Of a stretch of DNA of 64,000 nucleotides, positions 39,901 through 54,900 are shown in pieces. The position numbers are program-made. The first letter of the stretch is position 1. Each line of letters starts with the position of its first letter. This stretch comes from Raja brachyura (lineage: Eukaryota): positions 46,872,001 through 46,936,000 of the forward strand of contig OY740794.1 in the NCBI GenBank assembly GCA_963514005.1, read 5' to 3'.

Positions 39901-42900
39901 AAAATTGTCCATGTTTAAGTGGGCAAGCTAAATCATTGGGACTTCACCACATCATCCAATGGTTTCCTGCTAATTTATATGTTTCTTTCATCTTATGATT
40001 AAAGGAAACTGAAGGGTGCCTTTTGGTAGGTAGGGAATGTTGTTCTGCCTTTACAATAGCTGGAAACTCATTATAAGCAAAATTCAGATGGGTCCAGTAA
40101 TAGGAGATAGTACAGAAAATTAAAACAGTTTGGTGTCTCAATTTTGGGACTGGCAATTTTACTGACTCATTTGGCACACATTCTGACCAATCATCCCTAG
40201 TTTCACTCCCAGACGCACTCACTGTTTTAATGGACTATAAAACAACATATTTGAGACAAGCATGATCAAAGCTCCTACAGGATTGCCAATTCTGTTTTGA
40301 GAAACCCCTGCAGCTGGTTTTGCATGTCACATTAAGTTTATATCGAATTGAATTGAAATAATTTCAATTTTGAATCTTTTCTGTAAATATTTATCCAGTC
40401 CGTAGACCAGCCAATGGCATTTATTGTCAATTCCAATTGTCCTTTGGAAAGCATATGGTGACCAATTATCCTAGAGACATTTTGGTAAAGAGGCCTCCAG
40501 AGTGGACCTACAGTACATTGGCAATGCTGGGTTTTAGCTCCAGTACGACAACATATTTCCAAGTTACAATGTTTAACTTTGTAGAGAGCTTAAAAGTGAT
40601 GGCTTGCAAATGTCCCTGCTGCACGTCCTTCGATCTGGTGATCTCAAACAAAATGCACGCAGGTCACGGGGAGAATGCACCAACTCCATAAAGACCGAAC
40701 CCGTAGTCGGGATAGAACCCAGGACTCTGGTGCTGTAAGGCAGCAACTCTTTCACTGCATCACGTAGAAATGTTCTTAGAAAACTTTAGATAATATTTCA
40801 TCGGTTGAAGCAGAGTATAACTAATAACATTTCTGGAATTGGATTAGAAGGGATGATGTGAAAATGCATAGGAAATGTGTAGGAAGGAATTGAAGATGCT
40901 GGTCTAAACCAAAGATAGAGACAAAATGCTGGAGTAACTTAGCGGGACAGGCATCATCTCTGGAGAGAAGGGTCGAGTCCCTTCTTCAGAGTGAAGAACA
41001 CACCAGAGTTACTCCAGCACTTTGTGTCTATCAGTTTGTGGAAAAGGATAGGGTTTGTAAACTTTAACTGTTACTAGAAGATTTACATAATAGACTGGGT
41101 TGCAGTTTCTTTTTTTGCATGTTGCTATATGGATGTTATTAATCCCAGATTGTGCATGAAAATGTGCCATCAATTTGTGCTCAACATCATAAGAGGCAAT
41201 TAAACACATTTTATTATGTTTTCCACAGTTTACACAGGTGATAAAACATAGGTTAACATGGGCGATGCAAAGGAGAACTTTTTTTCTTTGATCCTGGCTA
41301 CTGTGGTTCTGACCATGTACTTACCCGGTGAGTGGAATTATTTTGACTACTATTAATATTTTATAAGAGGTTTTCTTCTCGTTTAATAGTACACATATGC
41401 ACTCCACCTGGCTGACTATCTAAATAAAAAGCCTATTTTCATGCCATTTGATTCTTGTTAAATCAGAAAAATATATAGTATTGACATGTAAACATTAATG
41501 ATATACAATATTTGGTCAGTTTTATCTAACATTACTATAATACTATTTGCTGAACATGTATTCCATGCTATGCAAAGATGTCAAACCAAAGTAATCTCTG
41601 ATATATTCCAGATTTTGCCTCTGTTTTTGCTTTACTAATCATGATCCTATCTCTANNNNNNNNNNNNNNNNNNNNNNNNNNNNNNNNNNNNNNNNNNNNN
41701 NNNNNNNNNNNNNNNNNNNNNNNNNNNNNNNNNNNNNNNNNNNNNNNNNNNNNNNNNNNNNNNNNNNNNNNNNNNNNNNNNNNAATGCATCCATCAGCAC
41801 AAAACACCAAACTATTTCCACTTAATTACTAGGTATAAATAAAGTTGTCTGCTTTTTAACATGGAATGGCAGAGAAAGGCACCATTTAACTTTTCAAGTC
41901 TGAACAAGCAGTCTAAAACTGCTGCCCAATTAAATCTAGTATCCAACTATTTCCATCAGTTCCTTCCTATCTCTCATTTACTGCCAACAAGGAACTTAAT
42001 GTGAGATGAGGGTTTCCTCATGTCGGCTGACAATATTTAGCTCAATGTATAGGAAGGAACTGCAGATGCTGGTTTAAACCGGATAGACACAAAAAACTGG
42101 AGTAACTCAGCGGGCCAAGCAGCAACTCTCGAGAAAAGAAATAGGTGATGTTTCGGGTAGAGACATTTCCAACATTTAGCTCAAGCTCATTATTAATGTC
42201 TCCACTCACTTTAAATTGACTACTTTTTAAACATTCAGCACTGGATGAAATTTCCTTCAGCCAAGCACGGGGAAGACTGATTTCATTATCTTCAGTGCCT
42301 ACAACAGACCACATTCCTTAAGCAGTGACGCTATCTTTTTCCTTGGTATTCATCTGAAACTGAGCCAGACTTTCTGGTTCGATTTCAGTTGAATACCAAG
42401 GAGAGTAAACCAGACATATTTAACCTCATGCCACAAGTAAAGTTGCCTAATTCCACCATCATGTCACTGTTAGATTGCACCACACATTCATGCCTGTAAC
42501 CTTGTGGTGTGACCATTCCAATGCACATCTAGCCAGCCTCTCTCATTCTATAAAACTTCCACACCCGCTCCTCTTGGATCAGCTAGAAGGAGGGCCCCAA
42601 GAAAAGAACAGTTTTCATACTAACAATTTTATTTTCCCTATCCTTTTTGTCAGGAAATAAAAAGAAGAAATGTTGTTTTTACGGTAACTTTCCTCAAAAA
42701 AGTAGTTGTTAAACGGCATCATTATGGAAACATATTATGTGGGTGGAATTGTTAAAATTCCATGTTAAAAAGCAGACAACTTTATTATGTGGGTGGAATT
42801 ATGTCCTGTCACACCAAATGTGGGTACAGTGTTTTACGTCACTACAATTAACGCTAAAATTAAGTTATGTGAAATGCATTTTGCACAAGATTCAACAGAA

Positions 42901-51900: not shown

Positions 51901-54900
51901 GCTAGGCAGCGACAAAGAGACTTAGAGAACTGTGACCCATACACTGACCCCGAGTGTAACGCCCGATACCAGGCTAGGGAACAACGAAGAGTGGATATGG
52001 AGAACTGTGATCCGTACACTGATCCCGAGTGCAGATCACAGTCCAGGGCTCGGGAACAGCACAGAGTGGACATGGAGAACTGTGACCCATACACTGACCC
52101 CGAGTGCAACGCCCGATATCAGGCTAGGGAACAACGAAGAGACTTAGAGAACTGTGACCCATACACAGATTCAGAGTGTTTTTCCCGATATCAAGCCAGG
52201 CTGCGACAAAGAGGGGACACAGAGAACTGTGATCCACGCACTGATCCCGAGTGCAGATCACAATCCAGGGCTCGGGAACAGCACAGAGACTTAGAGAACT
52301 GTGACCCATACACTGATCCCGAGTGTAACGCCCGATATCAGGCTAGGGAACAACGAAGAGACTTAGAGAACTGTGATCCACACACAGATCCAGAGTGTTT
52401 TTCCCGATACCAGGCCAGGCTCCGACAAAGAGGAAGCTCGGAGAACTGTGACCCATACACTGATCCCGAGTGCAGATCACAATCCAGGGCTAGGGAAGAG
52501 CAAAGAGTGGACATGGAGAACTGTGACCCGTACACTGATCCCGAGTGTTATTCCCGATACAGAGCTAGACAGGAACAGAGAGGATATTTGAAGAGCTGTG
52601 ATCCACGCACTGATCCCGAATGCAGATCACAATCCAGGGCTAGGGAAGAGCAAAGAGTGGACATGGAGAACTGTGACCCGTACACTGATCCCGAGTGTTA
52701 TTCCCGATACCAGGCTAGGGAACAACAAATACGAGATTCCGAGAACTGTGATCCATACACGGATCCCGAGTGTTATTCCCGGCACCAAGCTAGACAGCGA
52801 CAAAGAGAAGACACTGAAAACTGTGACCCATACACTGATCCGGAGTGTTATTCCCGATACCAGGCCAGGGAACAACAAAGAGTAGCCTCTGAGAATTGTG
52901 ATCCACGCACTGACCCCGAATGTAATTCCCAAACTCGGTCCAGAGAGCAGCAAAGAAAAGCCACTGAGATCTGTGACCCATACACTGATCCCGAGTGTTA
53001 TTACTCTCTATATTACGCCAGGGAAAAGCAGAGAGCTGGTGCCGAGAATTGTGACCCGTCCGCTGATCCTGAGTGTGAATCCCAATCCCGCACTAGGGAG
53101 CAAGAAAGAGGAACCACTGGGAACTGCGACCCTTCCGGGGATCCCGATTGTCAACTCAAAAGGCCTTCAAGAGAGCAAGAGGGAACAGCCCCTGAGAAAT
53201 GTGATCCCTACACTGATCCTGAGTGTTATTCCCGATCACATGCCAGGGAGGAAGAAAGAACAGCAGCGGAAAATTGTGATCCTAACACTAACCCTGCATG
53301 TAATTCCCAAACCCATAGCAAACAGCAAGAGAGAACGGACGTGGAAACTTGTGACCCGTACACTGATCCTGAGTGTTATTCCCGATCCCACGCTGGAGAG
53401 GAAGAAATAGCCCGTGAGAAGTGTGACCCATACACTGATCCTGAATGCTACTATTCTTTATACCGGGCTAGAGAGCAGGAAAGAACGACCACAGAAAACT
53501 GCAATCCTAATTTTGAATCAGATTGTGATGGATACGAGTCTGACGTTAACGAGCAATACCGGACAGCCGCAGAAGATTGTGACCCAAACTATGACCCAAA
53601 CTGCAACAACCGACCAACTAACTCAAATGAATCAAATCGCGATTGCCCATCTGACGTGGATCCTGATTGCAGCGGCACTCCTTCCCACAGCAGTGAGAAA
53701 ACAGACACCGAAGAATGTGACCCTTATGACCCCTACTGTGGTGGAGACGCAATGGATTATCATCCATCAGAGAAGGCCTGTGACCCTGACTACGACCGTG
53801 ACTGTGCCGCATCCCAGTCTCACGAGGACGACCAAGTGCACAAAGAAGACTGCGACCCGCTCTATGACTCCAGCTGCCACGATGAAGAGGAGGGTGTGTA
53901 TGAAACAGACTCTGACTGTGATCCCGACTATGATGTCGATTGCCACGTGCAGCCATTCGCCTTTAAGGATGAAGAGCTCGATTCCCAAGATACGGGACGC
54001 TATGAAATGATCTGTGATCCAGACCTTGAATACTCATGTCCTTTCGAGAATGATGCCAATGATGTGACAACATCTTACGATGACTATCACCCAGCATATA
54101 ACCCTTACAGTGCAGGGTATGATAAACTGTATCAAGGCGATCAGGAGACTGATGGAACTGAAAAGGAAGATGATTCCCAAGGAAATCCAAACGAATCTGA
54201 CGATAAAATTTAAATTTATTTGCCTTTTTAGCTTCGGACAAAAAGCTATTTATGTTGGTTTTATTCATATTGTATGTCTTCGAATCATGTTAGAAAATGG
54301 AAGGGATATTGATCTAAAAGCATTGGTTTAAGTAAATGAAATAACTCGTTTCTTACTAATCTGTGTCAGAGCCAGGTGTTTTACAGGAATTCTTGAATGC
54401 AGCATTTTTCAATATGTTGATCATAAACAGAGTAGATATCTTAAAATACAATTGGCCACCAAAGATATACTCTTTCATAGACTAATGTAGCAACAACAGC
54501 TAAATCATGTACAATCCTAGGAAGAGTTTGATGACTCTTTTATGGTGTAGCTTCCATATTATGAAAAAGTAATAAACATTTTTATTTTGTTTGTTTTATT
54601 TCTTGTAAGGTATCAGCATATGCAAATAAAAAAAAGTGTTGATTTCTCTTTGCATTTATGAGTCCAATATGTAAGTATTCACTGCATTTCACTTTTAGTT
54701 TGGTTATATCTGAGGCCCAACTGTTGTGTATACATACCAAAACACAGTGTTGGAGGAACTCAATGAGTCAGGCAGCATCTGTGGAGCGAATGGACAGTTG
54801 ACATTTTGGACTCAGTCTGAAAAAGGATCCCAGCCCAAAATATTGTCTGTCCGTCCTCTACAGATGCTGCCTGGTCTGCTAAGTTCCACCAGCGCTTTGT

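What the first reader, a model, noticed from the sequence alone, without database searches (positions are those of the whole stretch)
41258..54213. Giant actinodin-like protein (about 1350 aa, about 53 Cys-pair motifs) in a probable cartilaginous fish
Seen: four phase-compatible exons splice into a signal peptide, a basic propeptide, a short aromatic domain and about 53 C(D/N)PxxDPxC-type motifs (hand count), with all cysteines in pairs. Established: this motif defines the actinodins, non-collagen components of fin actinotrichia/elastoidin that were lost in tetrapods. As I recall, teleost And1/And2 are much shorter, with roughly ten repeats. Inference: this is a strongly expanded actinodin, a candidate structural component of ceratotrichia or another chondrichthyan extracellular fibre. 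The ORF track misses the N-terminus, so automated annotation may call it uncharacterised.
[Added by the scan's program, not by the reader: the finding's places include an assembly gap (unread letters, written N; its length is only estimated) at 41656 to 41783. Whether the letters on both sides are continuous or in frame is not known: test that first.]
Basis: partly seen in the sequence, partly recalled or inferred. Interest (0 to 1): 0.85.

Follow-up and report, generated by a model that had tools for sequence, protein, structure and literature searches.

The report
Expanded shark-type actinodin fin-fibre gene
This is an intact four-exon gene for an actinodin, the non-collagen protein of fish fin-fold fibres, carrying 53 cysteine-pair motifs where bony-fish relatives have about ten to sixteen, so it is an unusually large member of a known family, not a new kind of gene.

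Summary
Four GT-AG exons (41258-41327, 44943-44987, 47910-48061, 50422-54213, + strand) have compatible phases (1, 1, 0) and sum to 1352 codons. The last exon has 106 cysteines, which form 53 pairs; 35 fit the strict motif C[DN]PxxDPxC. The assembly gap (41656-41783) lies in intron 1 and removes no coding segment.

The gene is an actinodin of the And1/2 type. Every exon is collinear with named actinodin1 or And1/2 proteins, including the non-repeat N-terminus and three And1/2 landmarks. The closest relative is a 497-aa bamboo-shark "hypothetical protein".

The extra length comes from two tandem arrays:
- 12 units of about 15 aa;
- 22 units of about 25 aa.

Their copies are old (at most 90% DNA identity) and under purifying selection (pN<pS in 228 of 231 and 66 of 66 unit pairs). 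Simple assembly duplication and pseudogene decay are therefore unlikely.

A role in ceratotrichia is inferred, not shown. Whether the large size is general in cartilaginous fishes could not be tested: no eukaryote genome collection was available, and the one shark comparator looks truncated. Verdict: a new variant of a known kind, of moderate interest.

The parts
41258..41327 (+). Exon 1: start codon and signal-peptide-like N-terminus (23 codons plus 1 nt, phase 1).
   Evidence: The ATG has A at -3 and G at +4, and an in-frame TAG lies 2 codons upstream. The donor is ccg|GTGAGT. Mean Kyte-Doolittle hydropathy is 2.26 over residues 8-22. tblastn aligns it to P0002 residues 1-24 at 62.5% identity. 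No signal-peptide predictor was available.
41656..41783 (.). Assembly gap (128 N) inside intron 1. It is not part of the coding sequence.
   Evidence: It is the only N run in the window. It lies between the exon-1 donor (41328) and the exon-2 acceptor (44942). No homologue segment is unaccounted for. I did not fill it or look it up.
44943..44987 (+). Exon 2: a 45-nt mini-exon (phase 1 to phase 1) that with the split codons reads D-MLEANVLRRLLKR-D.
   Evidence: It was found by tblastn with P0002 residues 25-39. Acceptor TTTCTTTCAG and donor GTAAGT are present. It aligns with the corresponding segment of 10 of 11 homologues; P0037 has a gap there.
47910..48061 (+). Exon 3: basic site RSKR-HTKR (47972-47995), followed by the aromatic segment FPPDFWKAYQHFSDIGFDEG. 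This is the first half of the Augurin-like domain.
   Evidence: Pfam PF15187 Augurin scores E 6.2e-6 and 26.8 bits against a cut-off of 27 for this exon alone. Identity to P0002 residues 40-91 is 75%. Identity to lungfish And1/2 is 41%, E 3e-10. R-x-[KR]-R is present in 11 of 11 aligned homologues.
50422..50526 (+). Exon 4, residues 1-35: non-repeat segment VYEMDRTYLQYIQAKNRDES..., the second half of the conserved N-terminal domain.
   Evidence: It aligns with E[LM]D[KR]xYL...NKNR...HL in 13 of 13 homologues tested by pattern and in the alignment. AlphaFold2 suggests two helices, at low confidence.
50527..51159 (+). Exon 4, block A: Cys-pair units 1-13. Units 2-13 form a tandem array of about 15 aa per unit (CDPxxDPxC plus a 4-13 residue spacer).
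   Evidence: Unit list. TRF finds a 45-nt period at 50644-51017, 8.2 copies, 64% matches. Across 66 unit pairs mean pS is 0.844 and mean pN 0.274, with pN<pS in 66 of 66.
51160..51858 (+). Exon 4, block B: irregular units 14-23. This is the conserved And1/2 core, with the landmarks KDEP (residue 353) and RTKEGYPC (residue 413).
   Evidence: Landmark patterns. Collinear BLASTP alignment to lungfish And1/2. Unit 15 (C-x9-C) sits where bony-fish proteins have ...LxRICxxSDxxCxQY... (sequences; compared by eye).
51859..53499 (+). Exon 4, block C: units 24-45, a tandem array of 22 units of 24-26 aa (CDPYTDPEC plus an R/Q/E-rich spacer), with higher-order periods of 3 and 2 units.
   Evidence: TRF finds a 75-nt period (15.5 copies, 73% matches) and a 225-nt period (5.2 copies, 79%) at 51852-52998, and a 150-nt period at 52369-53109. 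The best copy identity is 90% over 219 nt. Across 231 unit pairs mean pS is 0.611 and mean pN 0.219, with pN<pS in 228 of 231. AlphaFold2 on residues 480-750 gives pLDDT 76.5 and 11 helices of 14-19 residues separated by loops of 6-11.
53500..54213 (+). Exon 4, block D: acidic units 46-53 with the And1/2 landmark ETDSDCDPDY (residue 1161), an acidic Tyr-rich tail, and the TAA stop at 54211-54213.
   Evidence: Unit list. Net charge is -59 over 237 residues. It forms most of the best tblastn alignment to P0002 (P0002 residues 114-490 against window 53014-54189, 52.6% identity, E 2.6e-134). The stop is seen.
54571..54576 (+). Candidate polyadenylation signal AATAAA, about 360 nt after the stop. 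A second one lies at 54625.
   Evidence: Pattern scan and sequence. There is no transcript evidence.

Best explanation
This is an intact gene for an actinodin of the And1/2 type. Its closest relative found is a bamboo-shark protein. The product has several parts.
- A signal-peptide-like N-terminus.
- A short pro-segment ending in a conserved R-x-K/R-R site, which I infer is cut by a furin-type convertase.
- An aromatic, probably helical domain related to Pfam Augurin.
- 53 nine-residue Cys-Cys units, which I infer are disulfide-closed loops, separated by Tyr-rich spacers and followed by an acidic tail.

The usual And1/2 scaffold is kept. Two lineage-specific tandem arrays were added:
- 12 units of about 15 aa in block A, ahead of the conserved core;
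- 22 units of about 25 aa in block C, between the GKTKEGY-type and EPDPDCDPEYD-type landmarks.

Most likely function, by inference from the family: a secreted structural protein that co-assembles with fibrillar collagen into elastoidin fibres of the fin fold. In a cartilaginous fish those fibres are the ceratotrichia. The repeated loops would give many equivalent contact or cross-link sites per molecule.

Shown here: gene structure, homology, repeat architecture and selection on the repeats. Inferred: secretion, cleavage, disulfides, collagen association and tissue.
For: Homology:
- Neoceratodus Actinodin1/2 was the only hit among 2178 candidates of 694-2211 aa (E 1.1e-26).
- 10 hits came from 2747 candidates of 30-693 aa. 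Six are named actinodin1 by NCBI or UniRef. The best is Chiloscyllium punctatum chiPu_0010785 (E 3.8e-122).
- The representative library gave 29 hits at E<=0.001. The top hit was P0002 (E 2e-99, 61% identity).

Collinearity: all four exons align in order to 11 homologues, and the landmarks L0-L3 occur in order.

Expansion:
- 106 Cys against 14-32 in 13 homologues.
- The landmark distance L2 to L3 is 748 aa, against 53-134 aa in the 11 homologues that have both landmarks.

Reality of the repeats:
- The motif excess exceeds all 2000 shuffles.
- Copies are at most 90% identical.
- pN<pS in 228 of 231 and 66 of 66 unit pairs. In the motif codons, third positions are 3-5 times more diverse than first and second positions.

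Composition: 7.2% Tyr, which fits the 'tyrosine-rich non-collagenous' component of elastoidin (PMC13120675 and PMC6497306, passages read).

Family function:
- Zebrafish and1/and2 double mutants lack actinotrichia (PMC13120675, passages read).
- A catshark actinodin homologue, ScAnd1, is expressed in distal paired and median fins (PMC4778128, passages read).
Against: - There is no transcript, protein or expression evidence for this locus.
- The published ScAnd1 primers do not match the window at up to 3 mismatches. This is therefore not demonstrably that gene; it may be another species or another paralogue.
- The only cartilaginous-fish comparator (P0002) is 497 aa with about 14 units. On its face that argues against a generally giant shark actinodin. 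However, P0002 lacks landmarks L1 and L2, has an odd Cys count (29) and carries a hybrid-looking unit.
- The unit pairs in the selection test are not independent.
- The region comes from a scaffolded assembly with a gap nearby, so the repeat number is not independently verified.
- Exon 3 alone falls 0.2 bits under the Pfam Augurin cut-off.
- I had no And3/4 sequence to compare, so the And1/2 assignment rests on the names of the hits and on landmarks.
Confidence: 0.8

Rival explanations
1. The gene is a real actinodin, but the number of units is wrong because the tandem arrays were mis-assembled (expanded, collapsed or chimeric), so '53' is not the true count.
For: Tandem arrays with periods of 45, 75, 150 and 225 nt fill most of the exon. 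The scaffold has an assembly gap 8.6 kb upstream. The bamboo-shark model is much shorter.
Against: No two long copies are more than 90% identical over 219 nt. Synonymous differences between units are large, with mean pS 0.61 and 0.84. The frame stays open for 1273 codons. The Cys pairing is perfect, 53 of 53; random misjoins would tend to break it.
Confidence: 0.1
2. It is an actinodin-family paralogue used in some other extracellular material or as a precursor of secreted peptides, as with the Augurin-like N-terminus. A shorter gene elsewhere would be the fin-fibre actinodin.
For: The ScAnd1 primers do not match. The N-terminal domain matches Pfam Augurin, a processed secreted protein (PMC4287990, abstract in a search listing only). 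The dibasic sites are conserved. Block C has a spacer type that I did not see in the bony-fish actinodins retrieved.
Against: The And1/2 landmarks are kept in order. The Augurin-like domain and the dibasic site are shared by named actinodin1 proteins, so they do not distinguish a paralogue. tblastn with four actinodins found no second copy in this window. That result says nothing about the rest of the genome.
Confidence: 0.12
3. It is a decaying or unexpressed gene copy whose long open frame persists only because the repeat composition is poor in stop codons.
For: Other frames over the repeats are also unusually open, for example 231, 174 and 199 codons on the + strand. This shows that composition lengthens ORFs here.
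Against: The coding frame is 5 or more times longer than any other frame. All three introns have canonical GT-AG sites and matching phases. pN is far below pS between units. The invariant Cys, Asp and Pro positions are kept.
Confidence: 0.03

Closest known systems
Actinodin1/2 (And1/2) of lobe-finned and ray-finned fishes, e.g. Neoceratodus forsteri Actinodin1/2 (P0001, 699 aa) and Acipenser or Polypterus actinodin1 (P0030, P0032)
   Same: It shares the order of parts: signal-like N-terminus, short segment ending ...KGD (KRD here), R-x-K/R-R site, aromatic DFW...Y..F.D.G segment, E[LM]D[KR]xYL...NKNR helix region, C[DN]PxxDPxC units, the landmarks KDEP, [KR]TxEGYxC and E.D.DCDP[ED]Y, and an acidic Tyr-rich tail. 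Tyr content is similar: 7.2% against 6.6-11.3%.
   Different: It has 106 Cys against 14-32, and 1352 codons against 366-739 aa. It has two tandem arrays (blocks A and C) that these proteins lack. Identity to lungfish And1/2 is only about 31% in BLASTP local alignments (43% over phmmer's matched stretches). The Pro-rich and YYYY segment of bony-fish proteins is not evident here.
Chiloscyllium punctatum hypothetical protein chiPu_0010785 (P0002, 497 aa)
   Same: It is the closest relative: 61% identity by phmmer and 53% in the best BLASTP local alignment. Exon 3 is 75% identical. It has the same exon-2-type segment DMLEANVLRQLFKGD, the same 25-aa unit type (CDPYTDPEC plus YSQYRTREQER...) and a collinear acidic C-terminal part. 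Pfam Augurin scores 33.2 bits, above the cut-off.
   Different: It has about 14 units instead of 53. It lacks block A and the core landmarks KDEP and KTKEGY. It has 29 Cys, an odd number, and one hybrid-looking unit. Three consecutive 25-aa units are identical in protein, which would favour collapse in assembly. I could not inspect its locus.
Zebrafish And1-And4 and catshark ScAnd1 (literature only; no sequence in hand)
   Same: They are described as tyrosine-rich non-collagen components of elastoidin with the repeated motif. They are needed for actinotrichia, and ScAnd1 is expressed in shark fin folds (PMC13120675, PMC6497306, PMC4778128, PMC4764851; passages or section read).
   Different: Zebrafish and2 is stated to have 10 repeats, and and3/and4 fewer (PMC13120675). 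The ScAnd1 primers do not match this window. The papers I could read give no repeat count for a chondrichthyan actinodin.
Augurin / ECRG4 (Pfam PF15187)
   Same: The region from exon 3 into the start of exon 4 resembles profile positions 16-91. Both are secreted-type proteins with dibasic processing sites.
   Different: Per a review abstract, Augurin is a small protein (148 aa). No actinodin-type repeats were seen in it here. Exon 3 alone is just under the cut-off. The resemblance covers only the N-terminal domain.

Membership tests
Actinodin (And) family | Repeated nine-residue motif C(N/D)PXXDPXC (PMC4764851, section 8) | tested here: met
   There are 35 strict matches and 53 Cys pairs. In 50 of 53 pairs the first Cys is followed by [DN]P. 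The 2000 shuffles gave at most 1 strict match.
Actinodin (And) family | Sequence homology to named actinodins outside the repeats (N-terminal non-repeat region) | tested here: met
   Exon 3 against lungfish And1/2 gives E 3e-10. The start of exon 4 aligns to residues 93-125. All four exons are collinear with 11 homologues. I aligned 11 of the 13 actinodin-like proteins in hand. P0005 (long foreign N-terminal extension) and P0034 (N-terminus incomplete) were left out.
Actinodin (And) family | Secretory signal peptide | tested here: inconclusive
   The N-terminus has a charged start followed by 15 hydrophobic residues (mean hydropathy 2.26), and it aligns with the N-termini of homologues. No signal-peptide predictor was available.
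Actinodin (And) family | Tyrosine-rich composition (PMC6497306 and PMC13120675, passages) | tested here: met
   The last exon is 7.2% Tyr, within the 6.6-11.3% range of 13 homologues.
Actinodin (And) family | Expression in fin-fold ectoderm and mesenchyme, and presence in actinotrichia or ceratotrichia | not testable with these tools
   No transcript or protein data were available for this locus. Published data concern zebrafish, paddlefish and catshark genes (PMC4778128, PMC13120675).
And1/2 subgroup (as opposed to And3/4) | Conserved landmarks of the long And1/2 proteins: KDEP..CDPRYDP, [KR]T.EGY.C..YYD..CYP and E.D.DCDPEYD.NC. These landmarks are my own, derived from the retrieved sequences, not from a paper. 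| tested here: met
   Window positions are 353, 413 and 1161 of exon 4, in the same order as in the homologues. Among 13 homologues L2 occurs in 11, L3 in 12 and L1 in 5. No And3/4 sequence was in hand, so exclusion from And3/4 was not tested directly.
Pfam PF15187 Augurin | Score at or above the gathering cut-off of 27 bits | tested here: inconclusive
   Exon 3 alone scores 26.8 bits, E 6.2e-6. The start of exon 4 alone gives no Augurin hit. In the relatives the domain spans this exon junction: P0002 scores 33.2 bits over residues 40-115 and P0001 scores 30.4 bits.

The most novel reading that the evidence does not exclude
The number and type of actinodin repeats may set the calibre of elastoidin fibres. 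The chondrichthyan-type 25-aa unit is predicted as a 7-residue Cys-flanked loop plus an 18-residue helix. Its amplification to 22 copies, and 53 loops in all, may be the molecular change that turns micrometre-scale actinotrichia-like fibrils into the massive ceratotrichia of sharks and rays. The conserved Augurin-like N-terminal domain would link a fin-skeleton protein family lost in tetrapods to a small secreted protein, ECRG4, that tetrapods keep.
Probability: 0.15. Interest if true: 0.7.

Novelty: new variant of a known kind. Interest (0 to 1): 0.45.

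Why it matters
Elastoidin has been known since the nineteenth century as collagen plus a tyrosine-rich non-collagen component. 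Actinodins supply that component in zebrafish, and their loss is linked to the fin-to-limb transition.

A full gene model for a cartilaginous-fish-type actinodin has three to five times more motif units than its bony-fish relatives. It gives a concrete candidate for the non-collagen part of ceratotrichia. It also gives a testable idea, that repeat number relates to fibre size.

It also warns that gene models of this family may be truncated or unnamed in shark annotations. The closest model is a 497-aa "hypothetical protein" that lacks the conserved core. The finding does not reveal a new kind of protein.

Tried and rejected
Searches and predictions that gave nothing useful:
- Exon 3 alone against longer proteins found no candidate sharing enough 5-residue words. 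The query is short, so this is weak evidence.
Names for P0004, P0005 and the other unnamed hits could not be obtained.
- The ESM Atlas search with the last exon gave no usable hit.
- The PDB sequence search gave 0 matches at E<=1.
- AlphaFold2 on exon-4 residues 1-270 (single sequence) gave mean pLDDT 44.3 and no usable fold.
- Foldseek of the block-C model against the PDB gave 0 matches at E<=0.001, of 4 at E<=10. pTM was 0.27, so only local helix-loop structure is suggested.
- Pfam on the whole last-exon ORF found 0 families at E<=1.
- Pfam on the first 60 residues of exon 4 gave only a sub-threshold PI-PLC-X match, which I take as chance.

Literature:
- Zhang et al. 2010 (Nature 466:234) is not held. 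What I say about it comes from citing papers or from recall.
- One search for elastoidin chemistry returned nothing relevant among the 15 listed of 56.
- 'ceratotrichia' with 'elastoidin' is held by 4 papers. The 3 listed add nothing molecular beyond ScAnd1.
- 'actinodin' with 'ECRG4' is held by 0 papers.
- 'actinodin' with 'shark' is held by 18 papers and 'actinodin' with 'ceratotrichia' by 3. I read passages in six of them and found no repeat count for a chondrichthyan actinodin.
- Supplements were closed. The phylogeny in PMC4764851 (Suppl. Fig. S4), its Figure 5 (proteins drawn to scale) and Suppl. Fig. 3 of PMC4778128 may show chondrichthyan actinodin lengths that I could not see.

Other checks:
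- The ScAnd1 primers gave 0 matches at up to 3 mismatches.
- ARAGORN found no tRNA gene.

Not done:
- Genome contigs holds only bacteria and archaea, so I did not use it.
- As a result, orthologous loci in other sharks, rays and chimaeras stayed unchecked.
- I did not use complex prediction, because I make no binding claim that it could test.
- I neither built nor searched the joined spliced protein. The total of 1352 codons is the sum of exon lengths.

Full report
**1. What is in the sequence**

A stop-to-stop scan shows one outstanding open frame on the + strand, 50392-54213, of 1273 codons. It coincides with a rise in G+C to 0.51, against about 0.35-0.43 in the neighbouring intervals.

The frame is entered at a canonical acceptor (TTTTCCAG|GTA), so the last exon is 50422-54213 and encodes 1263 residues before TAA. 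Upstream there are three small exons:
- Exon 1, 41258-41327: ATG with A at -3 and G at +4, an in-frame TAG two codons upstream, and donor GTGAGT.
- Exon 2, 44943-44987: 45 nt, acceptor TTTCAG, donor GTAAGT.
- Exon 3, 47910-48061: acceptor CCTGCAG, donor GTAAGT.

My first reading missed exon 2. It came to light only when tblastn with the bamboo-shark relative placed residues 25-39 of that protein at 44870-44986. Intron phases are 1, 1 and 0. The exon lengths (70 + 45 + 152 + 3789 nt) sum to 1352 codons.

The total length is therefore an arithmetic sum.

**2. The assembly gap**

The window has one N run, 41656-41783. It lies inside intron 1, 328 nt past the exon-1 donor and 3159 nt before exon 2. 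The "ORFs" across it are only runs of X.

Exons 1, 2, 3 and 4 align to residues 1-24, 25-39, 40-91 and 91 onward of the closest relative with nothing missing. The gap therefore hides no coding segment, and the question of reading frame across it does not arise.

Two things remain open: the true length of intron 1, and, strictly, whether exon 1 is correctly scaffolded to the rest. The ten-residue identity of exon 1 with the relative's signal region supports the join.

**3. The motif count**

The last exon has 106 cysteines and exons 1-3 have none. Taken in order, the cysteines form 53 pairs:
- 50 with spacing C-x7-C;
- two with C-x6-C;
- one with C-x9-C.

Thirty-five pairs match C[DN]PxxDPxC exactly, and in 50 of 53 the first Cys is followed by [DN]P. 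In 2000 shuffles of the same residues, C-x7-C occurred 8.7 times on average (maximum 19) against 52 observed. The strict motif never occurred more than once.

**4. Architecture of the last exon**

- **Residues 1-35:** a non-repeat segment.
- **Block A (units 1-13):** includes a tandem array of about 15-aa units. TRF finds a 45-nt period, 8.2 copies, 64% matches.
- **Block B (units 14-23):** irregular.
- **Block C (units 24-45):** 22 units of 24-26 aa, each CDPYTDPEC plus an Arg/Gln/Glu-rich spacer. TRF finds periods of 75, 150 and 225 nt.
- **Block D (units 46-53):** increasingly acidic units and an acidic, Tyr-rich tail, with net charge -59 over 237 residues.

**5. Is the repeat array real coding sequence?**

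The longest repeated copies are at most 90% identical over 219 nt, so this is not a stack of identical copies.

| Block | Unit pairs | Mean pS | Mean pN | Pairs with pN<pS |
|---|---|---|---|---|
| C | 231 | 0.611 | 0.219 | 228 of 231 |
| A | 66 | 0.844 | 0.274 | 66 of 66 |

Within the nine motif codons, diversity at third positions (0.35 in block C, 0.54 in block A) is 3-5 times that at first and second positions. The pairs are not independent. Even so, the pattern is what old duplicates held by selection on the protein would give. It argues against both recent assembly duplication and decay.

Other frames are also unusually open over the repeats (up to 231 codons on the + strand and 259 on the - strand). 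The coding frame is about five times longer than any of them.

**6. What it is**

Homology searches with the last exon:
- Among proteins of 694-2211 aa it found one relative among 2178 candidates: Neoceratodus forsteri Actinodin1/2 (E 1.1e-26).
- Among shorter proteins it found 10 among 2747 candidates. First was Chiloscyllium punctatum "hypothetical protein chiPu_0010785" (497 aa, E 3.8e-122). Six are named actinodin1: Acipenser, Polypterus, Triplophysa and Thalassophryne by NCBI, and Paramormyrops and Anguilla by UniRef. A Latimeria protein is labelled "extensin-2-like".
- The exhaustive HMMER search of 1.84 billion representatives, with the first 1200 residues of the exon, gave 29 hits at E<=0.001, 5 at E<=1e-10 and 1 at E<=1e-30.

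The similarity is not confined to the repeats:
- Exon 3 aligns to lungfish And1/2 residues 44-92 (41% identity, E 3e-10).
- The first 33 residues of exon 4 continue that alignment.
- All four exons are collinear with 11 homologues. I aligned 11 of the 13 actinodin-like proteins in hand and left out P0005 (foreign N-terminal extension) and P0034 (incomplete N-terminus).

Three landmarks that I derived from the retrieved And1/2 proteins occur here in the same order, at residues 353, 413 and 1161 of exon 4: KDEP, [KR]TxEGYxC and E.D.DCDP[ED]Y.

The last two landmarks are 748 residues apart here. They are 53-134 residues apart in the 11 homologues that have both. That places block C as an insertion between them.

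The published family descriptions agree:
- The motif C(N/D)PXXDPXC is "characteristic of these proteins".
- A partial lungfish And1/2 has 11 repeats.
- The gnathostome ancestor had and1/2 and and3/4.
- And sequences exist in Callorhinchus milii (PMC4764851, section 8 read).
- Zebrafish and2 has 10 repeats, and and3/and4 are shorter (PMC13120675, passages read).

The 13 homologues in hand have 14-32 cysteines and 366-739 residues. I had no And3/4 sequence, so the And1/2 assignment rests on hit names and landmarks.

**7. The N-terminal domain**

Exon 3 alone matches Pfam Augurin (PF15187) at E 6.2e-6 and 26.8 bits, 0.2 bits under the cut-off. The bamboo-shark and lungfish proteins pass it (33.2 and 30.4 bits) with matches that run across the exon 3/4 junction. 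Sturgeon and coelacanth proteins give weaker matches, and four of the six scanned show faint Otospiralin matches.

An R-x-[KR]-R site (RSKR here, followed by HTKR) is present in 11 of 11 aligned homologues. I infer cleavage by a furin-type convertase; this is not shown. No paper in the library holds both "actinodin" and "ECRG4".

**8. Structure**

- AlphaFold2 without an alignment gave nothing usable for residues 1-270 of exon 4 (mean pLDDT 44.3).
- For block C (residues 480-750) it gave mean pLDDT 76.5 but pTM 0.27. The model has 11 helices of 14-19 residues separated by loops of 6-11, mostly 7.
- In register with the units, the loop is N-C-D-P-Y-T-D and the helix starts at P-E-C.
- The two cysteines of a unit would then bracket the loop and tie it to the first turn of the next helix. 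This is my reading of the secondary-structure string; I did not inspect coordinates.
- Foldseek found no PDB match at E<=0.001, and no PDB sequence matched.

**9. How it most likely works**

Shown: gene structure, family membership, repeat architecture and selection.

Inferred from the family: the protein is secreted, loses its pro-segment, forms 53 small disulfide-closed loops along a largely extended, Tyr-rich chain, and co-assembles with fibrillar collagen into elastoidin.

Supporting facts from papers:
- Actinodins are the tyrosine-rich non-collagen components of actinotrichia (PMC6497306).
- Loss of and1 and and2 together abolishes actinotrichia in zebrafish (PMC13120675).
- Ceratotrichia are described as homologous to actinotrichia and chemically similar to them (PMC4764851, PMC4778128).
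- A catshark actinodin homologue is expressed in distal paired and median fins (PMC4778128).

This locus has 7.2% Tyr and 8.4% Cys. That a larger number of loops gives a larger or stiffer fibre is a hypothesis only.

**10. What argues for caution**

- The host is called a cartilaginous fish only because the best hit is a shark protein at 53-61% identity. No eukaryote genome collection was available.
- The published ScAnd1 primers do not match the window.
- The single shark comparator is short (497 aa, about 14 units). It lacks block A and both core landmarks, has an odd number of cysteines (29) and one hybrid-looking unit, and contains three identical consecutive 25-aa units.
- I suspect that comparator is a collapsed or mis-spliced model, but I could not inspect its locus.
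- Whether 53 units is typical of cartilaginous fishes or peculiar to this lineage is therefore open.
- Figures and supplements that may show chondrichthyan actinodin lengths were not visible to me.

**11. Surroundings**

- tblastn with four actinodins found no second copy in the window.
- The rest of the window is dominated by transposon fragments. Reverse-transcriptase ORFs lie at 12615-13334 and 58254-58769, and a DDE_3 transposase fragment at 25745-26305.
- Intron 3 carries - strand ORFs at 48458-49861 that share the FADDTKLGG-type motif with those reverse-transcriptase ORFs.
- One tRNA-like element lies at 21047-21112.

**12. Verdict**

It is a member of a known family with an unusual, lineage-specific repeat architecture: a new variant of a known kind, of moderate interest.

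Noticed in passing
window 47910-48061 and 50422-50526; proteins P0001, P0002, P0009, P0030: The conserved N-terminal domain of actinodins matches Pfam Augurin (ECRG4). It scores above the cut-off in the bamboo-shark and lungfish proteins and just below it for exon 3 alone. Faint Otospiralin matches appear in four of the six relatives scanned. No paper in the library holds both 'actinodin' and 'ECRG4'. This may link a family lost in tetrapods to small secreted proteins that tetrapods keep.
   Followed up: partly
protein P0002 (Chiloscyllium punctatum chiPu_0010785, 497 aa): The closest relative is annotated 'hypothetical protein'. It lacks the And1/2 core landmarks, has 29 cysteines (an odd number) and one hybrid-looking unit, and has three identical consecutive 25-aa units. 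It looks like a collapsed or mis-spliced gene model. Its locus could not be inspected.
   Followed up: partly
proteins P0007 (550 aa) and P0010 (310 aa) from the representative library: Unnamed proteins outside the actinodins carry tandem CDPxxDPxC-like units, for example CDPYTDPxC or CDPTxDPTC with short spacers. The motif is therefore not exclusive to actinodins. Their origin and any relationship are unknown.
   Followed up: no
window 41222-41257: An acceptor-like CCACAG lies about 30 nt upstream of the start codon. In zebrafish and1 the start codon lies in exon 2 (PMC13120675, passage), so a non-coding upstream exon may exist here too. None was sought.
   Followed up: no
window 48458-49861 (- strand), 12615-13334 (+), 57771-59271 (-), 61534-62016 (+), 27923-28549 (-), 25745-26305 (-): The window holds many transposon fragments. 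ORFs 12615-13334 and 58254-58769 hit RVT_1, and 25745-26305 hits DDE_3. Similar reverse-transcriptase-like ORFs sit inside intron 3 of the actinodin gene on the opposite strand. The fragment tested there, 49526-49861, gave no Pfam hit.
   Followed up: partly
window 21047-21112 (-) and about 48100-48200 (+): There is one Rfam tRNA match at 36.3 bits that ARAGORN does not call. A tRNA-like stretch also lies just after exon 3 (read by eye). These are probably SINE heads.
   Followed up: no
window 4286-5092, both strands: This is a G+C-richer interval (0.50) with long open frames on both strands (268 and 214 codons) that match no Pfam family at E<=0.01. Its nature is unknown.
   Followed up: no
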